Below are positions 423-31,536 of a stretch of DNA of 32,000 nucleotides, one piece after another; position 1 is the stretch's first letter, and each line of letters starts with the position of its first letter. The DNA comes from Clostridia bacterium (GTDB lineage: Bacteria > Bacillota > Clostridia > TANB77 > RGIG9151): NCBI GenBank assembly GCA_017934955.1, contig JAGBIO010000003.1, positions 1 to 32,000 of the forward strand, in the 5' to 3' direction. The translations under genes and the position numbers were made by a program. The notes under the pieces were generated by a model. It worked only from the letters and a program-made list of their open reading frames with translations. It did no database searches and was not told where the DNA came from.

Positions 423-546
423 GACATTGAGTCAGACTTAGATTTATAAAAATAGCACAAACACTGTAGGAGCACCATGAATTGTGTTCCTACAGTGTTT
501 GTGCCGATATTTTTTGAAAGCTACAAGGTTATAGTCTGAATTGTAA
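423..546. repeat. Collapsed single-hairpin copy of the MITE-like element
   Basis: Arms tcagacttagatttataaaaatagcacaaacactgtagg and cctacagtgtttgtgc...atagtctgaattgtaac align to the arms of the full copies at 6703 and 19257. Only one degenerate hairpin (466-492) lies between them. Confidence 0.65.
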
Positions 547-553
547 CGTGTTT

Positions 554-1330
554 TTAATGAATATGATAGTGTAAATTTTGTGAGCTTTTTTGTTTGATTA
601 AGGCTTTGTAATATTTCATATCGTTACTGTTGTAGTGCATATATTCCAAATCTTTGATTAAACCGCTTGCGGTAAAGTAGTCTTTTTGCAGTATGGATAA
701 GTCAAGATTTAGTTTTTTTGAGTAGAGGTAGACATCCGGCAGTTCGAGGGCTGCGGAGATATAGGTAAGGAGTTTAGCTAAACCGGAGTTTACTTCTAAG
801 GAAAGTAGCGTATTATTGGAGGATAGCACTTTACATATATCTTTTAATGCTGCCGATAAATTATTCCTATAGATGTTTTTTAGAATACTCGGATAATTTA
901 AGATAATTTCGACGCTGTTTAAGTCGGATAAATAGATATTGTGGTGCATTACATCCATTAAGTAAGAATAGGATTCCGTATCTCTTTCGCAAATTAAGTA
1001 GGCGTCAAGCATTTTTTCAAATATCGAGGAATAAAAGTTGTTGACGCTGATTTTGGAAAAAGTTTTGGCTTTAATGTTTTTGGAAATGTAGCTTAGAATT
1101 TCTTGGGTAACCGGAGATATTTGAATTTTGTGCAAGAGAGAAATTCGTTGTCCCAAGCTAAGCGGAGTCGATGTAATTTCGTCGATATAGTCTGTCAGAA
1201 GCGCATACGCATTCTTATAAGCGGTATATTTATCTTTTAAAGATATACCGGAAGTATTTGCCGCTATTGTCATTTGATGAATGATTTCTAATTTTTTTTC
1301 ATAATCAAACAGTTTCATTTGTATCTCCAT
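554..1330 (-). CDS. Hypothetical protein, predicted all-helical, no family recognised
   Basis: 258-codon ORF with SD-like aaaggaaag upstream. A second in-frame ATG at 1318 is an alternative start. No motif recognised. Confidence 0.6.
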   Translation of the reverse strand: MEIQMKLFDYEKKLEIIHQMTIAANTSGISLKDKYTAYKNAYALLTDYIDEITSTPLSLGQRISLLHKIQISPVTQEILSYISKNIKAKTFSKISVNNFYSSIFEKMLDAYLICERDTESYSYLMDVMHHNIYLSDLNSVEIILNYPSILKNIYRNNLSAALKDICKVLSSNNTLLSLEVNSGLAKLLTYISAALELPDVYLYSKKLNLDLSILQKDYFTASGLIKDLEYMHYNSNDMKYYKALIKQKSSQNLHYHIH

Positions 1331-1421: not shown

Positions 1422-1590
1422 AGTTACAGGTCACAATATATCGGGACGTCGAGGACGCCGTCCCCTACAATGACGGTGCAATCATCGTAGGGACAGCATT
1501 CATGCTGTCCACAGAAAAGGCAGAAAAGAAGGACAGCATAAATGCTGTCCCTACAAGGATTATGTCATTATTATAGAAAGATATACCTTG
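1422..1590. mobile_element. MITE-like element with REPIN core plus extra GC-rich hairpin module
   Basis: Left end is gttacagg. The extra hairpin cgggacgtcgaggacgccgtcccctac lies at 1442-1468. The core is GTAGGGACAGCATTCATGCTGTCC - acagaaaaggcagaaaagaa - GGACAGCATAAATGCTGTCCCTAC (1487-1554). The right arm is degenerate and runs into the ytxC-like stop codon. Confidence 0.8.
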
Positions 1591-6659: not shown

Positions 6660-6702
6660 GAGAAAACCGGACGTCATTTTTAACAAAGAAGATGCTAAAT
6701 TT

Positions 6703-6856
6703 GTTACTATTCAAACTTAAAATTATAAAAATGGCACAAATACTGTAGGGACAGCATTTATGCTGTCCACGGAAAAGGTAGAAAGTAGGACAGCATGAAT
6801 GCTGTCCCTACAATGGTTGTACCATTATTGTAGGCGATATAGTTTGATTAGTAACC
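6703..6856. mobile_element. Complete 154-bp MITE-like element with REPIN core, inserted in a terminator loop
   Basis: Ends gttactattcaaact / agtttgattagtaacc. Core hairpins at 6745-6768 and 6788-6811. Flanking direct repeats taaattt (6696-6702) and taatttt (6857-6863). Confidence 0.85.
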
Positions 6857-6877
6857 TAATTTTGAGCATCTTTTTTG

Positions 6878-6907
6878 TTGAAAAAAGTAGAAGGTTGTTG
6901 CTATAAT
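6878..6907 (+). promoter_or_regulatory. Candidate sigma-A promoter of the thioesterase gene
   Basis: TTGAAA (6878-6883), 18-nt spacer, TATAAT (6902-6907), about 37 nt upstream of the ATG. Confidence 0.5.
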
Positions 6908-7419: not shown

Positions 7420-7547
7420 GGGGCGACTATTAGTCGCCCGATGTAGAATGTGTATTGGGCGATTAATAATCGCCCCTACGTCTTTGTTGTCGCACGAGAA
7501 AAAAATTATATAGTAACAATTATACCTTATTGAGTCTGAATTGTAAC
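7420..7547. repeat. REP-like doublet with GCGA stem variant, plus an element end fragment
   Basis: Hairpins ggggcgactattagtcgccc (7420-7439) and gggcgattaataatcgcccctac (7457-7479). The terminal motif gagtctgaattgtaac lies at 7532-7547. Confidence 0.6.
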
Positions 7548-11712: not shown

Positions 11713-13617
11713 ATGGGCAAAACGTATTTTAACGATGGAATTACGGGGAATGGAAAATTGCTTGTTTCTTTTACGGATAAAGGGGAAGCGAATCGTGTTT
11801 TTTGGCCGGTGCAAGATTATGCACAGCAGATGAATCATATTTGGATGGGTTTTAAATTTGACGATTCTGTGACGAAGTTTTTGCATGAGAATTTATGGTA
11901 TGTGGAACAGTTTTATGATGGAAAAAGTAATGTATTGGTGACGAGTTACGAGAATTCGGATTTTGGCTTGAAGATTCTGCAGAAGGATTTTGCATTAAAT
12001 GATAAGGATGTATGGGTTCGTCATTATGAGGTGACCAATATTTGCGATCGTGATCTGTATTTGAGGGCGTTTTTGCATACGGATTTTATAACGGCGGACC
12101 ATAATGTTCGCAGTGGAATGATGGATTTTTCTTCGAATTGTGCGGTAATTTATAATAAGGAGCATACGGTTGCAATCGGTTCGGGCGAGAAACTTGCCGG
12201 ATTTCAGTTTGGAAATGCGATGAATGCTGCGGTTAATGATTGTTTGTATGGAAAAGATGAGATTTCCATGACGTCGGATATGGCGTTAAAGTGGGAATTT
12301 GGTGTTTTGGCTCCGAAGAAAAAAGTAGAATTCAGTGTATTTTTCTGTTTCTCTTATGATTGCTCAGATGCAATTGCTTTATTCAATGAAACAAAAAACG
12401 AGAAGGGAAACTTTTTAATAGAGTGTGAGAAGAAGTATTGGGAAGAGGAGTTTCGGAAGTATAATAAATTTGTTACGGGAAATGAAAAGGTTGATGATGT
12501 GTATTTTAAGTCGATTTTGACTTTTAAACTTTTAACAAATGCGGATACCGGGGCGATTTTGGCGGCGGTGGAAGTGGATGAGAATTTTACGCGGTGCGGT
12601 CGCTATGGGTATTGCTGGCCACGTGACGGTGTGTTTATTACAAAAGCATTTGATTTGTGTGGAATGACAGAAGAGGCGGAGCGTTTTTATACGGTCTGGG
12701 CGAAAAAGGCACAGCTTGCAAATGGGGCATGGCAGCAGCGGTATTACTTGGATGGAAAGTTGGCTCCTTCATGGGGAATTCAAATTGATGAAATTGCGGC
12801 GATTATTTATGGGGCCTGGAGTCATTTTGAGCACACGAGAAAATTGAGCTTTTTGGAGGAAATTTGGAGTTCGATAAAGCCGGCAGCGTTGTATCTGATG
12901 AATCATATAGATGGAGAGACGGGGCTTCCGATGGCGTCTTATGATTTGTGGGAAGAGCGTTTTGGGGAGCATACTTATTCGGCGGCTTCTGTGGTGGCGG
13001 CGCTACGGTGTGCGGCGTTTATGGCGGAGGAGCTTAAAGTGGATATTCCGCTTGCAAATTTGTGGAAAAAGGAAGCGGATAAGATAAAGGAAAGCATTCT
13101 TCGTAATTTATGGAATGAGGATGAAAAGAAGTTTTTAAGAGGAATCAGAACGAGATTGAATTGGTGGAATTGTGAGACGGTTTCTCTTCCAACGAATGAA
13201 ATGGGCTATCGGATGGATGTTGCGGCTGTGGATAACATTGTGGATATTAGTTTATTGGGGCTGACCATTCCGTTTGATGTGTTTGCTGTGAAGGATGAGA
13301 AGATAAAGAGAACGGTTCGGGCGATTGAAGATCGATTAGATGGTTTCCCTGCCGGCGGATTCGGGAGATATGAGTATGATTCGTATATCGGTGGAAATCC
13401 TTGGGTTATTTCGACGCTGTGGTTGGGATTATATTATGCAGAAATCGGAGAAGTTGAGAAGTGTAAGGAGAAGCTGATGTGGGCGGTAAAAAATGCGACG
13501 AAGCTTGGATTTTTACCGGAGCAGGTGGACAAGTTTAATGGCGGACCTGCTTGGATTATGCAGCTTGCTTGGTCAAGCGCGATGTTTATTATTACGTTAT
13601 ATGCGTTAAAGAAATAA
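11713..13617 (+). CDS. Glycoside hydrolase family 15 (glucoamylase/glucodextranase/trehalase-like), cytoplasmic
   Basis: Motifs YGYCWPRDGVF and SYDLWEERFGEHTYS are typical of the GH15 (alpha/alpha)6 domain. I prefer the ATG at 11713 (GGAGG 8 nt upstream) over the track TTG at 11653. No signal peptide. Confidence 0.85.
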   Translation: MGKTYFNDGITGNGKLLVSFTDKGEANRVFWPVQDYAQQMNHIWMGFKFDDSVTKFLHENLWYVEQFYDGKSNVLVTSYENSDFGLKILQKDFALNDKDVWVRHYEVTNICDRDLYLRAFLHTDFITADHNVRSGMMDFSSNCAVIYNKEHTVAIGSGEKLAGFQFGNAMNAAVNDCLYGKDEISMTSDMALKWEFGVLAPKKKVEFSVFFCFSYDCSDAIALFNETKNEKGNFLIECEKKYWEEEFRKYNKFVTGNEKVDDVYFKSILTFKLLTNADTGAILAAVEVDENFTRCGRYGYCWPRDGVFITKAFDLCGMTEEAERFYTVWAKKAQLANGAWQQRYYLDGKLAPSWGIQIDEIAAIIYGAWSHFEHTRKLSFLEEIWSSIKPAALYLMNHIDGETGLPMASYDLWEERFGEHTYSAASVVAALRCAAFMAEELKVDIPLANLWKKEADKIKESILRNLWNEDEKKFLRGIRTRLNWWNCETVSLPTNEMGYRMDVAAVDNIVDISLLGLTIPFDVFAVKDEKIKRTVRAIEDRLDGFPAGGFGRYEYDSYIGGNPWVISTLWLGLYYAEIGEVEKCKEKLMWAVKNATKLGFLPEQVDKFNGGPAWIMQLAWSSAMFIITLYALKK

Positions 13618-13820
13618 GGGACAGCATGAATGCTGTCCGTACAGGAAGGAAGAAATGCGTTTGTAGGGACAGCATTTATGCTGTCCACAGAAAAGGCGGA
13701 AAAGCGGGACAGCATGAATGCTGTCCGTACAGGAAGGAAGAAATGCGTTTGTAGGGACAGCATTTATGCTGTCCACAGAAAAGGCGGAAAAGCAGGACAG
13801 CATGAAAGCTGTCCCTACAG
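13618..13820. repeat. Tandem array (about 2.3 x 88 bp) of REP hairpins filling the GH15-radA gap
   Basis: gggacagcatgaatgctgtccgtac recurs at 13618 and 13706 (and, with two substitutions, at 13794). gtagggacagcatttatgctgtcc recurs at 13662 and 13750. Five hairpins in total. Confidence 0.9.
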
Positions 13821-13856
13821 GAAGGAAGACTGTAAAATAAAACGAAGGAGGTTCTT

Positions 13857-17110: not shown

Positions 17111-17146
17111 CGTATACAATAGAAAATATTGATTCAAGCCTTCTTT

Positions 17147-17173
17147 CGGGACGTCGAGGACGCCGTCCCCTAC
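17147..17173. repeat. Solo GC-rich REP variant (cgggacgtcgaggacgccgtcccctac)
   Basis: Identical to the module at 1442-1468 and near-identical to 31378-31404. Confidence 0.8.
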
Positions 17174-19256: not shown

Positions 19257-19410
19257 GTTACTATTTAGACTATATCTCTTAAAATAATGGTACAATCTTT
19301 GTAGGGACAGCATTTATGCTGTCCGCAGAAAAGGCGAAAAGCAGGACAGCATAAATGCTGTCCCTACAGTGTTTGTGCTATTTTTATAATTTTAAGTCTG
19401 AATGGTAACC
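19257..19410. mobile_element. Complete 154-bp MITE-like element with REPIN core
   Basis: Ends gttactatttagact / agtctgaatggtaacc. Core 19301-19366. Flanking direct repeats tttatta (19250-19256) and tttattt (19411-19417). Confidence 0.85.
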
Positions 19411-24288: not shown

Positions 24289-25287
24289 TTATTTGCCTTT
24301 ATAGCTATTATGTTCCTCTAAGGTTTGGCTGAAATAGTGTTCTCCGTTTCCTACGGCTTTGGCACGATAATAAAGATAAGGCGTTTCCTCCGGTTCTAAT
24401 GCAGCTTCGATACAGGCTTTTCCGGGTGAGGCGATAGGGGTCGGCGGAAGTCCTTTGTATTTATAAGTGTTGTACGGGGAGTCGACCTCTAAGTCTTTAT
24501 AGAGAAGTCGTTCTTTTTGTTCCGGTAGGAGATATTGAATGGTGGCATCAATTTGGAGCAACATGCCTATTTTAAGACGATTATGGATGACACTGGATAT
24601 TGTTTTCCTTTCCGAATCAATTTTTGCTTCACGCTCGATTAATGACGCAATAGTGACAATTTCCTTTACACTGAATCCAAGAGCGTCTGCTTTTTTTTGA
24701 TAGTCTTCTGTCCAAACTTTATCAAATTGATTTAACATAGTTTGTATGATTTCTTTTTCTGTCCAAGTAAGCGGAATCGAATAGGTTTCCGGGAACAAAA
24801 AACCTTCCAATTGGCGATAATCGTTGCCCTTTTCCATATAGTCGTAAGGTAGTTCCATAGAGCCGGCATATTCGAGGAATTTTGTCTCATCGACAAGTCC
24901 TTTTTGAGAAAGCATTGCAGCAATTTGTTTTACGGTGTAGCCTTCGGGTATCGTTACCAAGATTGCTTCTGCTTGATTCCCCTTTAGAAGGGTTTCGAGA
25001 ATGTTGTCAAAATCGACTTTTCCCGGTCCGAATTTATAATTGCCGGGTTTTAGAGAAGCAGTTGCGTCTTTTTGTTTGATAAAGAAAACAAAGGCGGAAG
25101 TATTTTTAATAATTCCGTTATTTTTTAAGTTTTTTGCAATGCTTTTCGTTCCGGCACCTTCCTGAATCGTGATTTTAATTTCCTCTTTTAAGGTAACTTC
25201 GTCAATGTGAATTACGTAAAAAATGCCAAGTAGCAAGAAAACAGCAATAAAGATAATTCCGATTTTTAAGATTAAATTTTTTTTCAT
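24289..25287 (-). CDS. mltG: Endolytic murein transglycosylase MltG (YceG-like)
   Basis: N-terminal TM. Motifs IASLIEREA and YNTYKYKGLPPTPIASPG. The ATG overlaps the upstream TGA (ATGA). Confidence 0.9.
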   Translation of the reverse strand: MKKNLILKIGIIFIAVFLLLGIFYVIHIDEVTLKEEIKITIQEGAGTKSIAKNLKNNGIIKNTSAFVFFIKQKDATASLKPGNYKFGPGKVDFDNILETLLKGNQAEAILVTIPEGYTVKQIAAMLSQKGLVDETKFLEYAGSMELPYDYMEKGNDYRQLEGFLFPETYSIPLTWTEKEIIQTMLNQFDKVWTEDYQKKADALGFSVKEIVTIASLIEREAKIDSERKTISSVIHNRLKIGMLLQIDATIQYLLPEQKERLLYKDLEVDSPYNTYKYKGLPPTPIASPGKACIEAALEPEETPYLYYRAKAVGNGEHYFSQTLEEHNSYKGK

Positions 25288-26816
25288 TTTAGTTTCTCCT
25301 TTTCCGATGATTTTGATGACGTCAAGGCGAGTGCCGCCATAATCTGTAATACGAAAGAGACAATAAAGGTGTAACGGGATTGAACTTCCATTAACATAAG
25401 CGCACCTTCAAATCCGAGGAGCAGTAGTCCCATCAGGCAAGTGATGTCATTTTTTCTGTATCGGATACTGTAAATAAATACACCAATAAGAAGAGTACAG
25501 GAATAGATACTTGAAAGTATATAAAGCGTGGTAAGGGAGTTCGGATATTGGTCTAAAATAGATTTAGACCAATAAATTCCGGCAAAATCATTTTGCGCCC
25601 AAATTGCGTGTGTTTTTGTAACAAAGAGCAGTAAGATTTTTTCTGGATTTTGTGTTAAACGTTCAATAAGACGTGTTTTAATTTCTTTTTTTATTTCTTC
25701 TAAATTTCCGTTTTTCTCAAAATAAATATTCTGATCTTCCGCTGAGAAAGTTCCATTCGTTTCAAAGTTGAAACCAACCAAGCAATAAATGGTATAAGGA
25801 ACGGCGCTTTTGTCTAAATAATATTTGGTTACACCGGTTTGGTAAAGGGTAACGCTGACGCTTTGAAAAATAAGGATATAGGTAACCAATAGCGTAAAAA
25901 GTGCCGATAACTTTCGTTTCTTTGTTGTATAGGAAAAATCGAAGATTTTGCCTATACAACAAAAAACGCTCCGCGAGGATGCACACTCACGCGAAAGGAA
26001 TGTTGCTGCGCAACCCGCGTTCGGCGCAGGTGTTTTGCCTTCGCAAAACACTTTTGTTCCAAATATTGTCAAAATGCCTATTCCGTATGCGGCGAGGTAC
26101 ATCGGTGCGACGCCTCGATAGAGGGAACCGACAGTAAGAAAAATTCCGGAAAGAAAAACGTAGCTTAGCATTTTCTTATGCGGTTCCGTATTTTGATATG
26201 CTTTTATTAAGAAATAGAGAGAAAGCATAAAAAACGGCATGGCGAAGTTTTCTGTAATTAAAACCGAAGAATAGGCGATTGAAGCAGGAAAAATACTATA
26301 TAAGAAGGCAGCAGCAAGCCCTGTTTTTCGGCTTTTTATCGTTTTCCCAATTCCGTAGAGAATCGGAATACAAGCGATTTGTAATAGTAAATTGATGATT
26401 TTAATTGGCAACAGCGAGCTTCCGAAGCACTTTATAATTTGTGCAAGGGTAAAAACATAAACCGTAAGGTGCGGGAAACGATGAAAATAGGATCCTTCTT
26501 GAAATGGAGAATTCCCGGTTGCCAAATCAATTGCGGAACGATACATCACTTCGTAATCACTTACCGGTACCGTAGGAACGTTTGTAATCCATATCGCACG
26601 TAGTACAACTCCTAAAAGCAGGAGAACGGTAAGTAAAATAATTGTCTGTCTTTTTGAGGGTTCTTTTATTTGAAAGAAAAGTAACCCGAGAAAAATGACG
26701 GTAGCGACGGAGGAAACAGCGATGATTATTCCGTAATTTTTAATGGCGGTATTTATGGAAAAATATAAGATCACTGCGACAAATGCAATTAAGACATAAT
26801 TAAAAAAATACTTCAT
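25284..26816 (-). CDS. GT-C fold polytopic glycosyltransferase (PMT_2/ArnT-like, GT39/83-like) carrying a 48-codon atypical insert
   Basis: Many TM helices throughout. The start is uncertain: the ATG at 26816 is preferred, and 26849 and the track start 26876 are alternatives. The stop overlaps the mltG start. Confidence 0.75.
   Translation of the reverse strand: MKYFFNYVLIAFVAVILYFSINTAIKNYGIIIAVSSVATVIFLGLLFFQIKEPSKRQTIILLTVLLLLGVVLRAIWITNVPTVPVSDYEVMYRSAIDLATGNSPFQEGSYFHRFPHLTVYVFTLAQIIKCFGSSLLPIKIINLLLQIACIPILYGIGKTIKSRKTGLAAAFLYSIFPASIAYSSVLITENFAMPFFMLSLYFLIKAYQNTEPHKKMLSYVFLSGIFLTVGSLYRGVAPMYLAAYGIGILTIFGTKVFCEGKTPAPNAGCAATFLSRECASSRSVFCCIGKIFDFSYTTKKRKLSALFTLLVTYILIFQSVSVTLYQTGVTKYYLDKSAVPYTIYCLVGFNFETNGTFSAEDQNIYFEKNGNLEEIKKEIKTRLIERLTQNPEKILLLFVTKTHAIWAQNDFAGIYWSKSILDQYPNSLTTLYILSSIYSCTLLIGVFIYSIRYRKNDITCLMGLLLLGFEGALMLMEVQSRYTFIVSFVLQIMAALALTSSKSSEKEKLK
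25917..26060. repeat. GC-rich multi-hairpin segment lying in frame inside the GT-C gene (second repeat family)
   Basis: Four hairpins: ttgttgtatagg-N17-cctatacaacaa (25921-25961), cgcg..cgcg, ctgcgc..gcgcag and gtgttttgc-cttc-gcaaaacac. The 29 nt at 25933-25961 recur at 28079-28107 with 2 mismatches. Confidence 0.6.
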
Positions 26817-26838
26817 TTTTCTGAAAATCACCTCAACT

Positions 26839-27822
26839 CTAAGTTTCATACTTTTTTTTCTTTCGTGTAAACACAAAAAATTTAGTTAATAAAAAGGTAA
26901 TCGGAATTCCGATAATCGCCGCTAACGTGTAAGCAATCAGTTTGTCCCAATGTAGGATGTTGTAGATGATAACGACGCAGAGGTTTTGGATCATAAAGTT
27001 CGGTATGTAAGCAATCGCAAATTTGATAAATTTCATAAAAGATAATGTTTTATCCTGAAAGGTAATCCGACTGTTGAGTAGGTAGGAAATACATAAGCTA
27101 AGCAGATATCCTAACACAAAAGCTGTATTTGGGTCAGCGAAAGCATTAAACAGCATGGAAAAGAGAATTCCGTTAAAGGTATTGATACAACCTACAAAAA
27201 GAAAGAGAAGAAATTGTTTTGAGAAGAAATTCTCTAAGAAAAGTTCTGTTTTGCTTTTTTGGTAACTGTCCCATGCAATCATTTTTTCTTTTTTGACGAT
27301 AAAGGCATTTTGCGCCAATTCTTTTAACGGAGTATCGGAGAAAGAATCTGAGTAAAAGGTATCGATTTTTCCTTCCGTTTCTTTTGCTAAAAATTCCGTC
27401 ACTTTTTGCATTCCGTAACAATTTTCTCCGGTTATTGTTCCGGTCGTTTTATTCATATTTGTGGCAATCAGATTCGGTTGGTTGATTTCTTTTAAAACCG
27501 GCTGAAGGAGGAAGGTAGGGGAGGCGGAGATGATATAGTCGGAGGAAGAAATTCTTTCTGTTAATTCTTTCCGAAGGTGCTTCGATTCCTTTTTCCAAAA
27601 CGCATCTAAGTAAGAATCGATATCTTTGATTCCCTTTAAAAAAGAGAAAAAATTTTCCTTCCATTCTTTTTTCGGAATGAACCCCAAAATATATTTTGTA
27701 AGCGAAAGACATTGCTTTGGCAGATATCTTAACAAAAGTGGATTTTTGCGAAGAGAAAACAAGTAAAAATTCACTGTAGAATCGCCCTGATACAATGTTT
27801 TATCAAAATCGTAAACGTTCAT
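26839..27822 (-). CDS. HAD-superfamily phosphatase fused to a GtrA-like membrane domain
   Basis: HAD motif I YDFDKTL at the N-terminus and FYSDSFSDTPL (motif IV-like). The C-terminal 130 aa has four TM helices typical of GtrA. I prefer the ATG at 27822 (aaggag 5 nt upstream). The track start at 27894 reads through the repeat element. Confidence 0.8.
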   Translation of the reverse strand: MNVYDFDKTLYQGDSTVNFYLFSLRKNPLLLRYLPKQCLSLTKYILGFIPKKEWKENFFSFLKGIKDIDSYLDAFWKKESKHLRKELTERISSSDYIISASPTFLLQPVLKEINQPNLIATNMNKTTGTITGENCYGMQKVTEFLAKETEGKIDTFYSDSFSDTPLKELAQNAFIVKKEKMIAWDSYQKSKTELFLENFFSKQFLLFLFVGCINTFNGILFSMLFNAFADPNTAFVLGYLLSLCISYLLNSRITFQDKTLSFMKFIKFAIAYIPNFMIQNLCVVIIYNILHWDKLIAYTLAAIIGIPITFLLTKFFVFTRKKKKYET

Positions 27823-27835
27823 AAAAACTCCTTTT

Positions 27836-28107
27836 TTATTGTATAGGTCAGAATTAAATTTATAGAAATAGCATAAATAGTGTAGGAACAGCATTTATGC
27901 CGTCCACAGAAAAGGCAGAAAGCAGGACAGCATTGCGGACGTAACACCGTGAGTGTAACGAACGGCTTGTACGTCCTATACAAAGAAACTCCAAGAACGT
28001 AGTGATTGGGAAGTTTCGACTGTTAATGCTGTCCCTACAATGGTTGTACCATTATTGTAGGAGATATAGAACAGTAACAAAAACTGAAGATTTTGCCTAT
28101 ACAACAA
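27836..28107. repeat. Composite: family-2 hairpin interrupted by a MITE/REPIN copy that itself carries a 90-bp nested insert
   Basis: ttattgtatagg (27836-27847) | MITE 27848-28078 | aaaaactgaagattttgcctatacaacaa (28079-28107). The second REP hairpin is split at 27933/28024. Confidence 0.8.
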
Positions 28108-28131
28108 CGAAAATACAATAGTTTGTTCTAC

Positions 28132-28995
28132 TTAATTCCAATAAGGAAGAATGTAAATCAGTGTAAAAATAGTCGCACCGTATAATAAAACAAGTAAAAA
28201 TAAGAAACGATCGTGAAGTAGAGTGGAAACCGGATCGCCGTCGGAAATTCCTTCGACGGTTAAACTATATTTCATGCAGATAATCATTACAAGCGGGACT
28301 GTCCACATGATATGCGGTATCAATTCCACCGTATCGATGCACCACATTGCATAAAAGACAATCGTGAGTGCGACACAAACATACATATTTTTATCTAAAA
28401 AGTTTTTGTTGTATTTTGAAAGCACTTTTCTTGTACCGGTTTCGTTCTTCAAAACTTCATTTCGTCTTTTTCCAAGTCCGAGGTAGAAGGACATTGCCAT
28501 TACCGTAAGATACAGCCAGTCGGAGACAGCAACATTAATTAATGCAGCCCCAAAGAAAACACGGAGAATAAATCCGACGGATAAAACCGCAATATCAATA
28601 ATCGGCACGTTTTTTAAGTAGAAGGAATAGAGGAGGTTTAGAATTAAGTAAGTAAGGATAAGCGGATGCGGTAGAAAGGAGGAGAAGCAAATATAATTTA
28701 GACTTATTATCAAAATAGTTAATACTAATATAAATATTACGGCTTGTGTTTTGCTGACTCTTCCCGAGGCAATCGGGCGATTCTTTTTGGTCGAATGGTT
28801 TCTGTCTTTTTCGGCGTCGAAGATATCGTTTAAGATATAGACAATTGAGCAGGCAAGCGAAAATAAAATAAAGCCAAAGAATGTTTTTTTCAATAATTCC
28901 GGTTGCAGTAAGTTACGGCTGAAGAGGAGTGGCAGGAAAATCAAGCCGTTTTTGATATAATGTTTGATTCTCATTAATTTTATATAGTCTTTCAA
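28132..28995 (-). CDS. UbiA-family prenyltransferase resembling decaprenyl-phosphate phosphoribosyltransferase (DPPR synthase)
   Basis: Motif NDIFDAEKDRNHSTKKNRPIASG follows the ND..D...DR.H.TK..RPIA.G pattern that I associate with the Rv3806c-type subfamily. N-terminus MRIKHYIKNGLIF. TTG start with a weak SD. Confidence 0.75.
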   Translation of the reverse strand: MKDYIKLMRIKHYIKNGLIFLPLLFSRNLLQPELLKKTFFGFILFSLACSIVYILNDIFDAEKDRNHSTKKNRPIASGRVSKTQAVIFILVLTILIISLNYICFSSFLPHPLILTYLILNLLYSFYLKNVPIIDIAVLSVGFILRVFFGAALINVAVSDWLYLTVMAMSFYLGLGKRRNEVLKNETGTRKVLSKYNKNFLDKNMYVCVALTIVFYAMWCIDTVELIPHIMWTVPLVMIICMKYSLTVEGISDGDPVSTLLHDRFLFLLVLLYGATIFTLIYILPYWN

Positions 28996-31342: not shown

Positions 31343-31536
31343 GTTACAGGTTAGACTCAAAATTGTCTCAAATATATCGGAACGTTGGGGACGCCGTCCC
31401 CTACAATGTTTGTACAGGTATTGTAGGGACAGCATTTATGCTGTCCTGCTTTTCTGCCTTTTCTGTGGACAGCATGAATGCTGTCCCTACAATGATTGTG
31501 CCATCATTGCAGAAAAATGTAGTATGAATAGTAACC
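31343..31536. mobile_element. Complete 194-bp MITE-like element with extra GC-rich hairpin module and inverted core
   Basis: Ends gttacaggttagact / tatgaatagtaacc. Extra module at 31378-31404. Core at 31421-31490 with spacer tgcttttctgccttttctgt. Flanked by a perfect direct repeat ggaaaat (31336-31342 and 31537-31543). Confidence 0.85.

What the first reader, a model, noticed from the sequence alone, without database searches (positions are those of the whole stretch)
27836..28107. Filled versus empty site inside one window: a MITE/REPIN copy sits exactly in the loop of a second hairpin repeat
At 25921-25961 a 12-bp-stem hairpin is intact: ttgttgtatagg-aaaaatcgaagattttg-cctatacaacaa. At 27836-28107 the same sequence is present as ttattgtatagg | 231 bp | aaaaactgaagattttg-cctatacaacaa. 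The right part shows 27/29 identity with the first copy. The 231 bp (27848-28078) is a MITE/REPIN copy lacking about 9 nt of its left end. Together with the terminator case at 6686-6877, this suggests that the element prefers loops of pre-existing hairpins as targets. It also gives an internal control for the insertion junctions.
Basis: seen in the sequence. Interest (0 to 1): 0.65.

Follow-up and report, generated by a model that had tools for sequence, protein, structure and literature searches.

The report
MITE nested inside a palindromic repeat
A small non-coding mobile element sits inside a 41-base palindromic repeat between two genes and itself carries a third small element in one of its own hairpin loops; this is a real but old and ordinary example of bacterial repeats inserted into one another, and it does not show that the element targets hairpin loops.

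Summary
The intact hairpin is at 25922-25962, one base off. The MITE copy lacks 8 nt of its end, not 9.

The 41-nt unit is a real repeat. A third, uninterrupted copy with the same 17-nt loop lies in an unrelated Clostridia MAG. The 231 bp at 27848-28078 belong to a family with terminal inverted repeats and 8-bp target duplications, which carries REP-type hairpins. The same filled structure is present in a second strain with about 95% nucleotide identity, so it is old and not an assembly artefact.

The site is more deeply nested than reported. About 90 nt with two hairpins sit in the apical loop of one REP hairpin of this MITE. A second copy of that element ends in a REP loop in the other strain.

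The site is not a clean junction control. It has no target duplication, and both inverted-repeat ends are damaged. The "empty" copy is a paralogue, lying inside a 135-nt in-frame insertion in a GT39 glycosyltransferase gene.

A preference for hairpin loops is not demonstrated: 2 of 5 scorable copies met the criterion, P≈0.09.

The finding is a new member of a known kind, of modest interest.

The parts
25922..25962 (-). Intact 41-nt palindromic unit. In gene orientation it reads TTGTTGTATAGG-C-AAAATC-TTC-GATTTT-T-CCTATACAACAA: a 12-bp outer stem, a 1x1 mismatch, a 6-bp inner stem and a 3-nt loop.
   Evidence: DNA fold -15 kcal/mol, z = -8.3.
25923..26057 (-). 135-nt (45-codon) in-frame insertion in the GT39/PMT_2 gene. 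It contains the intact hairpin at its gene-3' end. The other 94 nt are G+C-rich with three short hairpins, read by eye. The junctions ACAAAAG and ACAAAG form a short direct repeat.
   Evidence: Alignment with 8 homologues shows a 45-column gap in all of them. Coordinates. The peptide has no relatives among 1.8e9 representative proteins.
27836..27847 (+). Left arm (+ strand) of the split 41-nt unit, TTATTGTATAGG. Its complement CCTATACAATAA is identical to the corresponding arm of the L003 copy.
27848..28078 (-). MITE copy. It consists of fold-back arms, one intact REP hairpin (27886-27905) and one split REP hairpin. It starts at TCAGA, so 8 nt of the inverted repeat are missing. The other inverted repeat (…AACAGTAAC) has a 4-nt deletion. 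There is no target duplication.
   Evidence: Alignment A3. Flanking 8-mers TGTATAGG and AAAAACTG match 2/8.
27925..27933 (.). Left arm (GGACAGCAT) of the split REP hairpin.
   Evidence: This is the only split REP among 22 in the window.
27934..28025 (-). 92 nt between the REP arms. 86 nt of it (27937-28022) form a two-hairpin element that is 84% identical to an intergenic sequence in relatives (L007 1650-1735, L008 2732-2817).
   Evidence: Blastn. Consensus fold with 5 compensatory pairs, from 2 sequences only. A second copy ends in a REP loop in strain 2, at L020 1-17.
28026..28034 (.). Right arm (ATGCTGTCC) of the split REP hairpin, followed by CTAC.
28079..28107 (+). Complete 17-nt loop (28079-28095) plus the right arm (28096-28107) of the split 41-nt unit.
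   Evidence: 27/29 to the first copy. In a DNA fold the arms pair across the 231-nt insert.
6703..6855 (+). Reference full-length MITE (153 bp), with GTTACTATTCAAA…TTTGATTAGTAAC inverted repeats. The 8-bp duplication is CTAAATTT (6695-6702) and CTAATTTT (6856-6863). It sits in the loop of terminator hairpin 6682-6696 / 6865-6879.
   Evidence: The empty-site fold has a 15-bp stem. The element folds end to end, z = -10.8.
19257..19409 (-). Full-length MITE copy B, with 8-bp duplication CTTTATTA / CTTTATTT. It is not inside a hairpin.
31343..31535 (-). Full-length MITE copy F (193 bp, with an additional GGGACG…CGTCCC hairpin). Its 8-bp duplication is TGGAAAAT / CGGAAAAT. It lies in the loop of a weak 5-bp stem.
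28132..28995 (-). UbiA-family prenyltransferase gene. Its stop codon lies 24 nt upstream of the split hairpin, in gene orientation.
26839..27822 (-). HAD-GtrA fusion gene. Its ribosome-binding site and ATG follow directly after the split hairpin.
25284..26876 (-). GT39 (PMT_2) glycosyltransferase gene that carries the 135-nt insertion. The gene caller starts it at 26816, giving 510 aa.

Best explanation
The site is a fossil of successive insertions, one inside the other, in the spacer between two co-oriented genes (UbiA and HAD-GtrA).

1. A low-copy 41-nt palindromic unit was there first. The same unit occurs in another Clostridia genome.
2. A fold-back MITE of about 140-150 bp inserted at the junction of the palindrome's outer stem and its 17-nt inner part. 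This family has GTTACnnTTCAGA inverted repeats and makes 8-bp target duplications, so it was probably moved by a DDE-type transposase. It carries REP-type hairpins at its apex.
3. One REP hairpin of this copy carries a two-hairpin element of about 90 nt in its apical loop. That element got there either before or after the MITE arrived.
4. Later, 16 nt were lost at one junction: one copy of the duplication plus 8 nt of the inverted-repeat tip. This probably happened by slippage between CCTGTA (the end of the inverted repeat) and CCTATA (the palindrome arm). That left the arm directly abutting TCAGA and immobilised the copy.

Each inserted piece is itself a fold-back, so it brings the arms of its host hairpin together again. 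Apex insertions are therefore likely to be tolerated, and that alone can explain why they survive.

Shown: the repeat relationships, the boundaries, the duplications in other copies, the nesting, and the presence in two strains. Inferred: the order of events, the transposase class, the 16-nt deletion, and neutrality.
For: - The 41-nt unit occurs three times at 38-39/41 identity with the same 17-nt loop and unrelated flanks. The arm and loop are far beyond chance.
- MITE family: 8 copies align. Three complete copies have 8-bp flanking repeats matching 7/8, P about 6e-4 each. The element folds end to end, z = -10.8.
- REP hairpins: 21 intact copies, 18 with GTAG/CTAC at the foot, with compensatory stem variants. 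The site-2 REP is the only split one.
- The 86-nt insert is homologous to a free-standing intergenic element in relatives. It has a conserved two-hairpin fold. It recurs at a REP loop in strain 2, in a different MITE subtype.
- In a DNA fold of the whole 292 nt, the palindrome arms pair across the MITE and the REP arms pair across the 92 nt.
- Both junctions are identical in a strain with about 95% nucleotide identity from another sequencing run.
- Literature: REPs are known insertion targets (PMC1525189). [quoted passage not shown]
Against: - No orthologous empty site was found, so the insertion is inferred from paralogues only.
- This copy has no target duplication and a truncated end, so a standard transposition event is assumed rather than seen.
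- The 16-nt deletion model needs an inverted-repeat variant (GTTACAGG) that is seen in other copies but cannot be shown for this one.
- The 41-nt family has only three known copies, so 'pre-existing repeat' rests on few data.
- The transposase and any autonomous parent element are unknown.
Confidence: 0.8

Rival explanations
1. The elements actively target hairpin apexes. The MITE transposase, and whatever moves the 90-nt element and the REPs, would preferentially integrate into the loops of extruded hairpins or cruciforms, or of hairpins in single-stranded DNA. The nesting would then reflect a mechanism rather than survivorship.
For: - MITE A lies in the 8-nt loop of a 15-20-bp terminator stem.
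- The site-2 MITE lies at the stem/loop junction of the 41-nt palindrome.
- MITE F lies in the loop of a weak 5-bp stem.
- The 90-nt element is found at a REP apex in 2 of the 2 copies seen in REP-rich strains.
- The REPs themselves occupy the apex of the MITE fold-back.
- REP palindromes are established specific targets of IS1397, ISKpn1 and IS621 (PMC1525189).
Against: - Only 2 of 5 scorable MITE copies met the criterion (stem of at least 6 bp), against about 10% of intergenic positions. P = 0.087.
- Copies B and G are not in hairpins.
- The duplicated 8-mers of copies A and B are A+T-rich (CTAAATTT, CTTTATTA). A plain A+T preference, together with tolerance of insertions in terminator loops, would give the same picture.
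- The copy of the 90-nt element in relatives (L007) is not in a REP.
- The two REP-loop copies could share descent through recombination between MITEs.
Confidence: 0.3
2. The 41-nt hairpin is a functional RNA or DNA signal of the gene cluster, for example an mRNA stabiliser or processing site, or a protein-binding palindrome. The MITE would persist only because its own fold-back leaves that signal able to form.
For: - All three copies lie in the sense orientation of the upstream or enclosing gene.
- The loop sequence is conserved between two distant genomes (39/41) although the flanks are unrelated.
- The arms still pair across the insert in the fold.
- One copy is kept in frame inside a coding sequence.
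Against: - No Rfam family matches.
- No T-tract follows the hairpin, so it is not an intrinsic terminator.
- Exact 19-mers of the unit found only this one extra copy in 185,579 species-representative genomes and none in the JGI metagenomes.
- In site 2 the inner 6-bp stem is broken (GA to AG), which suggests relaxed constraint.
Confidence: 0.15
3. The two 12-nt arms are the terminal inverted repeats of a composite element whose interior is variable: 17 nt in one copy, 17 nt plus the MITE in the other. On this reading nothing was inserted into a hairpin.
For: Formally, the arms are perfect 12-bp inverted repeats flanking different contents. REP arms likewise flank either 2 nt or 92 nt.
Against: - The complete 17-nt loop is retained on one side of the MITE.
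- The interior is a member of an independent family with its own inverted repeats and duplications elsewhere.
- The third copy has the same 17-nt interior.
Confidence: 0.04
4. The pattern is a chance resemblance or an assembly chimera created by collapsing repeats.
For: Short-read contigs of this organism break inside these repeats (L001, L005, L019, L020 and L026 all end in them).
Against: - The matches are far beyond chance.
- The junctions are read through in the window. A second assembly record, scaffold L011, is 100% identical over its 16.7-kb overlap with the window. Contigs from two separate Logan runs cover the junctions too, one of them a strain with about 95% identity.
Confidence: 0.02

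Closest known systems
REP/BIME palindromic units as specific insertion targets of IS1397, ISKpn1 (IS3 family) and IS621/ISPpu9 (IS110 family)
   Same: A mobile element is found inside a short repeated palindrome, splitting it into two arms. The host genome is rich in REP hairpins with a GTAG foot (PMC1525189, PMC3479197).
   Different: Here the inserted pieces are non-coding (a 140-230-bp MITE and a 90-nt two-hairpin element), not transposase-bearing IS elements. The MITE's target is a different, low-copy 41-nt palindrome. Specificity is not demonstrated, and this copy shows no small target duplication at the junction.
[quoted passage not shown] 2011, PMC3049150)
   Same: It is also a Firmicute-type genome, with several families of small fold-back repeats nested in intergenic DNA near gene ends.
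   Different: The sequence families are different. Here each nesting is at a hairpin apex, and it reaches three levels in one spot.
REPINs mobilised by RAYT (Bertels & Rainey 2011, PMC3116915; Ton-Hoang 2012, PMC3333891)
   Same: Two inverted REP hairpins, each with a GTAG/CTAC foot, are separated by about 19 nt and form a long hairpin. Singlets, doublets and tandem arrays all occur.
   Different: The doublet is embedded in longer arms that end in 13-nt inverted repeats and are flanked by 8-bp duplications. From my own knowledge, that is the signature of DDE transposition, not of a Y1/HUH enzyme. No RAYT gene lies in the 37 kb available.
Rickettsia palindromic elements (RPE) inserted in frame in genes (reviewed in PMC10969869)
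   Same: The 'intact' hairpin lies in a 135-nt palindrome-containing insertion that keeps the GT39 reading frame open.
   Different: Only the 41-nt part is repeated. The encoded 45-aa peptide has no relatives, so no family of in-frame elements is shown.

Membership tests
MITE (non-autonomous inverted-repeat/target-duplication transposon) | Terminal inverted repeats | tested here: met
   GTTACnnTTCAGA … TCTGAAnnGTAAC at both ends of copies A, B and F. One end is present in C, D, G, H and site 2.
MITE (non-autonomous inverted-repeat/target-duplication transposon) | Target-site duplication flanking the element | tested here: met
   8-bp flanking direct repeats match 7/8 in each of A, B and F, P about 6e-4 each. 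The feature is not met for the site-2 copy itself (2/8).
MITE (non-autonomous inverted-repeat/target-duplication transposon) | Short, non-coding, multi-copy, folds back on itself | tested here: met
   153-231 bp, 8 copies aligned in 32 kb. Fold z = -10.8.
MITE (non-autonomous inverted-repeat/target-duplication transposon) | Autonomous IS with the same inverted repeats in the genome | not testable with these tools
   Only about 37 kb of the source genome is reachable. The species is not among the GTDB representatives searched.
REP / REPIN (RAYT-associated) | Short repeated imperfect palindrome with a conserved GTAG tetranucleotide at its 5' foot | tested here: met
   21 hairpins of the form GGACAGCAT-NN-ATGCTGTCC. 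18 have GTAG or its complement CTAC. Definition from PMC3479197.
REP / REPIN (RAYT-associated) | Two REPs in inverted orientation forming a larger hairpin | tested here: met
   Inverted pairs with 19-20 nt between the arms at 1491/1531, 6749/6788, 19305/19344 and 31427/31467.
REP / REPIN (RAYT-associated) | A RAYT (Y1 transposase) gene in the genome | tested here: inconclusive
   No Y1 transposase (RAYT) domain among the 23 window ORFs scanned against Pfam. Only a small part of the genome is available.
REP / REPIN (RAYT-associated) | Dissemination without inverted repeats or target duplication (single-strand HUH mechanism) | tested here: not met
   The REP doublets that form the element at the finding lie inside arms with inverted repeats and 8-bp duplications. 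The 231-bp unit is therefore filed as a MITE carrying REPs, not as a REPIN.
REP-targeting insertion sequences (IS1397, ISKpn1, IS621) | Encodes its own transposase | tested here: not met
   The 231 bp hold no ORF lying within them. The one listed ORF that overlaps them (26839-27894) is only the upstream extension of the HAD-GtrA reading frame. The 92-nt piece is too short to encode a transposase.
REP-targeting insertion sequences (IS1397, ISKpn1, IS621) | Reproducible insertion at one position of a palindromic unit | tested here: inconclusive
   The 90-nt element ends next to the loop bases of a REP in 2 of 2 copies in REP-rich strains. Only one junction of the second copy is visible, and the copy in relatives is not in a REP.
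Intrinsic terminator (for the 41-nt hairpin) | G+C-rich stem followed by a T-tract | tested here: not met
   No terminator-like site in 27600-28300. The stem is A+T-rich and is followed by AAAAGGAG, AAAGAAAC or AAAAATC.
RPE-like in-frame palindromic element (for the 135-nt insertion) | Insertion within a gene that preserves the reading frame | tested here: met
   45-codon gap in all 8 homologues, and the ORF stays open.
RPE-like in-frame palindromic element (for the 135-nt insertion) | Repeated family encoding a conserved peptide | tested here: not met
   The peptide has no relatives. Blastn finds only the 41-nt part elsewhere.

The most novel reading that the evidence does not exclude
In this lineage three unrelated non-coding elements (REP hairpins, the MITE with inverted repeats and target duplications, and the 90-nt two-hairpin element) would all be integrated preferentially at the apical loops of other hairpins. 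That would point to a shared pathway acting on extruded or single-stranded hairpin DNA, for example a RAYT/HUH-type or IS110-type enzyme whose target is a loop. Palindromic DNA would then grow by successive apex insertions.
Probability: 0.12. Interest if true: 0.65.

Novelty: new member of a known kind. Interest (0 to 1): 0.3.

Why it matters
The site gives a compact, well-resolved example of how small palindromic repeats accumulate inside one another in an uncultured Firmicute. It shows that REP-type hairpins can ride inside a classical MITE with inverted repeats and target duplications. If a whole-genome census showed real enrichment of insertions at hairpin apexes, target choice by such elements would become testable. 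As it stands, the site has no evident effect beyond lengthening an operon spacer from 14-61 nt in relatives to 309 nt. It is best used as an annotation aid: these repeats break short-read assemblies of this organism.

Tried and rejected
- Exact-pattern scans for the 41-nt unit:
  - genome representatives: 3 hits, of which only L003 is real;
  - JGI metagenomes: 5 hits, all chance matches in coding sequence;
  - viral contigs: none, neither for the hairpin nor for the REP.
- Rfam, at gathering and at E-value thresholds, on the window, L003 and L007: only 5S rRNA and tRNAs.
- Plasmid collection, blastn with the 135-nt insert and with the MITE: no match.
- Search for an orthologous empty site:
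  - UbiA relatives at 71-82% protein identity have UbiA-GtrA-YceG with a short spacer and no HAD-GtrA or GT39 genes;
  - the nearest HAD-GtrA homologues are at most 54% identical and lie at other loci;
  - the strain with about 95% identity has the filled site.
- Search for an orthologous empty site for the terminator MITE: relatives and strain 2 have different genes after the PGM-fusion gene.
- Homology beyond the 41 nt between the three hairpin loci: none above shuffled controls.
- The idea that the left arm is merely a mutated MITE tip: GTTACAGG and TGTATAGG share 5 of 8 positions, whereas the arm matches 11/12. Rejected, but the similarity of CCTGTA and CCTATA is kept as possible microhomology for the 16-nt loss.
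- Integron attC site, CRISPR repeat and intrinsic terminator readings of the 41-nt unit: rejected on anatomy. It is a perfect 12-bp stem, has no array, and has no T-tract.

Full report
**Observation**

Reading the sequence confirms the description. An intact hairpin TTGTTGTATAGG-AAAAATCGAAGATTTTG-CCTATACAACAA lies at 25922-25962, one base to the right of the coordinates given. At 27836-28107 the same unit is split: TTATTGTATAGG (27836-27847), then 231 bp (27848-28078), then AAAAACTGAAGATTTTG-CCTATACAACAA (28079-28107).

The 29-nt loop plus right arm occurs only at these two places with up to 3 mismatches, and none is expected in shuffles. The 12-nt arm with up to 1 mismatch occurs four times, all at these two sites, against 0.17 expected per window. 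A chance left arm within 300 nt of the right half therefore has a probability near 1e-3, before counting that it abuts the repeat boundary exactly.

**What the 41-nt unit is**

Read on the strand of the genes (minus), it is TTGTTGTATAGG-C-AAAATC-TTC-GATTTT-T-CCTATACAACAA. That is an almost perfect palindrome: a 12-bp outer stem, a 1x1 mismatch, a 6-bp inner stem and a 3-nt loop (DNA fold -15 kcal/mol, z = -8.3).

A scan of 185,579 species-representative genomes for a 19-mer of it gave three hits. Two are chance matches in coding sequence. The third, in an uncultured Clostridia MAG of 28% G+C (L003 5953-5993), is a complete uninterrupted copy: TTGTTGTATAGG-CAAAATCTACGATTTTT-CCTATACAATAA. By direct comparison it matches the intact window copy at 39/41 and the split copy at 38/41. 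It shares the arm variant CAATAA with the split copy. It lies between convergent genes, just before a terminator.

The flanks of the three copies share no similarity above shuffled controls, so the repeat unit is the 41 nt alone. A metagenome scan found only chance matches, and viral contigs gave none. The family is therefore real but low-copy, and its normal form has the 17-nt interior.

**What the 231 bp are**

The window is dense in repeats. Aligning eight copies defines a fold-back element of 153 bp (reference 6703-6855) with terminal inverted repeats GTTACnnTTCAGA…TCTGAAnnGTAAC.

The three copies with both ends (6703-6855, 19257-19409, 31343-31535) are each flanked by 8-bp direct repeats matching 7/8: CTAAATTT/CTAATTTT, CTTTATTA/CTTTATTT and TGGAAAAT/CGGAAAAT. 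The probability is about 6e-4 each. This is a MITE in the strict sense. From established knowledge of transposition, an 8-bp duplication points to a DDE-type transposase.

The apex of the element consists of one or two hairpins GGACAGCAT-NN-ATGCTGTCC. There are 21 intact hairpins of this kind in the window, and 18 have GTAG or its complement CTAC at the foot. Variants with compensatory stem changes also occur, such as GGACACAAT/ATTGTGTCC and GGACACCAT/ATGGTGTCC. A GTAG tetranucleotide 5' of the hairpin is the hallmark of REPs bound by RAYT (PMC3479197). These REPs also occur alone and in 88-bp tandem arrays, away from the MITE arms.

So 'MITE/REPIN' is right in spirit, but the mobile unit at the finding is a MITE with inverted repeats and target duplications that carries REPs. 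None of the other copies ends with the 29-nt segment.

**The copy at the finding is damaged and further nested**

It starts at TCAGA, so 8 nt (GTTACnnT) of one inverted repeat are missing. The other inverted repeat has a 4-nt deletion. There is no duplication: the flanking 8-mers TGTATAGG and AAAAACTG match 2/8.

Its second REP hairpin is split. The arms lie at 27925-27933 and 28026-28034 and enclose 92 nt instead of 2. Of these, 86 nt are 84% identical to an intergenic sequence upstream of a metallophosphatase gene in relatives (L007 1650-1735, L008 2732-2817). The two versions fold into the same two hairpins with five compensatory pairs, though this rests on only two sequences. Rfam has no match.

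In a second strain (Logan run SRR32406730, about 95% nucleotide identity), contig L020 begins with the last 17 nt of another copy of this element. That is followed by GA-ATTGTGTCC-CTA, which is a REP loop and arm of the other stem variant, and then by the arm of a single-REP MITE subtype. This lies at a position where the window has no such element. The 90-nt element thus sits at a REP apex in both copies seen in REP-rich strains.

Folding the whole 292 nt as DNA pairs the palindrome arms across the MITE and the REP arms across the 92 nt. The site is a three-level nest, each level at or beside a hairpin apex.

**Age and reality**

Scaffold L011, a second assembly record of this contig, is 100% identical to the window over 16.7 kb. 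A Logan contig of SRR12529200 reads from the UbiA gene through the right arm and loop into the MITE. In strain 2, L005 reads through the right junction into the 90-nt element, and L019 reads through the left junction (…AATTCTGA|CCTATACAATAA). Both are identical to the window. The structure, including the truncated junction, is therefore not an assembly artefact and predates the split of the two strains.

**No orthologous empty site**

Relatives whose UbiA protein is 71-82% identical have sulfatase-UbiA-GtrA-YceG, with 14 to 61 nt between UbiA and GtrA. They have no hairpin, MITE, HAD domain or GT39 gene there. The nearest HAD-GtrA homologues are at most 54% identical and lie at other loci. The HAD-GtrA/GT39 block therefore seems to be an acquisition of this lineage.

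For the terminator MITE, relatives and strain 2 carry different genes after the PGM-fusion gene.

The 'empty' site is thus only a paralogue, and an odd one. Alignment of the GT39 protein with eight homologues shows a 45-residue insertion absent from all of them. It corresponds to 25923-26057 and has the hairpin at its end. The reading frame stays open. The peptide has no relatives among 1.8 billion representative proteins. The other 94 nt are G+C-rich, carry short hairpins and match nothing else available.

**Mechanism**

The best-supported account is successive insertion followed by decay.

With the family's 8-bp duplication, the expected product on the gene strand would be …CTT-CAGTTTTT-[GTTAC…TCTGA-nnTGTAAC]-CAGTTTTT-CCTATACAATAA. 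The observed …TCTGA-CCTATACAATAA lacks exactly 16 nt: the inverted-repeat tip plus one duplication copy. If the tip was the variant CCTGTAAC, which is present at one end each of copies F and G, the deletion lies between the direct repeats CCTGTA and CCTATA. That is a plausible slippage event. This step is inference.

Two other copies are also truncated just after TCAGA/TCTGA on one side: D at 432, and the strain-2 copy in L020. Loss of an end therefore seems a common fate in this family.

**Do the elements prefer loops?**

Removing MITE A and one duplication restores AACAAAGAAGATGCT-AAATTTTG-AGCATCTTTTTTGTT, a 15-bp stem with the insertion in the 8-nt loop. Copy F lies in the loop of a weak 5-bp stem, and copies B and G are not in hairpins.

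I scored the criterion 'inside the loop of a stem of at least 6 bp'. About 10% of intergenic positions of the window qualify. I counted MITE A, which the script scored, and site 2, which I counted by eye because the script placed its junction at an internal mismatch. Two or more of five then has P = 0.087, which is suggestive only.

Tolerance is an equally good explanation. A fold-back inserted at an apex lets the host hairpin re-form, and terminator loops are A+T-rich like the 8-mers duplicated at copies A and B.

**Comparison with what is known**

- REPs are documented targets of IS1397, ISKpn1 and IS621 and of other IS families (PMC1525189).
- In-frame palindromic insertions are known from Rickettsia (PMC10969869).

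The present case adds new sequence families in an uncultured Firmicute. The window encodes YtxC, and RadA-, DisA- and CarD-type genes lie in a row. It also shows a neat three-level apex nest and REPs riding in a MITE with inverted repeats and target duplications. It does not add a new kind of system.

**Verdict**

The novelty class is a new member of a known kind, and I score interest at 0.3.

Noticed in passing
window 25923-26057 (within ORF 25284-26876, minus strand): A 135-nt, 45-codon in-frame insertion in a GT39/PMT_2 glycosyltransferase gene, absent from all 8 homologues aligned. It is G+C-rich, holds several hairpins and ends in the 41-nt palindrome. It is flanked by ACAAAAG / ACAAAG. 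It resembles Rickettsia palindromic elements in effect, but no family was found.
   Followed up: partly
window 27934-28025; L007 1650-1735; L008 2732-2817; L020 1-17: A two-hairpin element of about 90 nt with compensatory changes between copies. In relatives it stands free just upstream of a metallophosphatase gene. In the source lineage that same spacer (L011 2060-2170) holds three tandem REPs instead, and the element sits in REP loops elsewhere. It has no Rfam match. It could be a small mobile element or a displaced cis-regulatory RNA.
   Followed up: partly
window 13611-13830: A tandem array of REP hairpins with an 88-bp period (two units 97% identical), BIME-like, lying between a GH15 gene and radA. 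An ORF of 109 aa (13434-13763, minus strand) runs through it and is probably spurious.
   Followed up: no
window 1441-1468, 17146-17173, 31377-31404: A second, G+C-rich hairpin family, TCGGGACGTCGAGGACGCCGTCCCCTAC, also ending in CTAC. It is found alone and as an additional module inside MITE copies F and G.
   Followed up: no
window 432-547, 27848, L020 ~1-62: Three MITE copies are truncated on one side at the same point, directly after TCAGA/TCTGA, losing the GTTACnnT tip. This suggests a recurrent mode of end decay or a shorter-ended subfamily.
   Followed up: partly
window 7513-7547: A solitary MITE end (…ATTGAGTCTGAATTGTAAC), conserved in strain 2 (L020 ~660-694), lies upstream of an acyltransferase gene. 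Just before it are two G+C-rich hairpins (GGGGCGACTATTAGTCGCCC and GGGCGATTAATAATCGCCCC, the latter followed by CTAC).
   Followed up: no
window 25284-28131 versus L006, L007, L010: Relatives have UbiA-GtrA(139-145 aa)-YceG. The window has UbiA-[repeats]-HAD::GtrA-GT39-YceG. The nearest HAD-GtrA homologues are at most 54% identical (named ones include Clostridium butyricum), so the block looks horizontally acquired.
   Followed up: partly
window 554-1330 versus L021 12691-13455, L024 5280-6044: A minus-strand gene of 254 aa without any Pfam domain follows the PGM-fusion gene in relatives. A similar Pfam-less gene of 254-258 aa lies next to MITE G, beside the 5S rRNA and tRNA genes, in the window. 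If the two are the same gene, this is a local rearrangement with repeats at the boundaries. I did not compare the sequences.
   Followed up: no
window 1-32000: GC skew is strongly positive throughout (0.06-0.43) although the genes lie on both strands. A 5S rRNA gene (19-135) and a tRNA gene (146-218) lie at the start of the window.
   Followed up: no
L026 5165-5398: Strain 2 has an additional small membrane-protein gene directly after the PGM-fusion gene, where the window has the terminator with MITE A. The two strains therefore differ in gene content at this spot.
   Followed up: no
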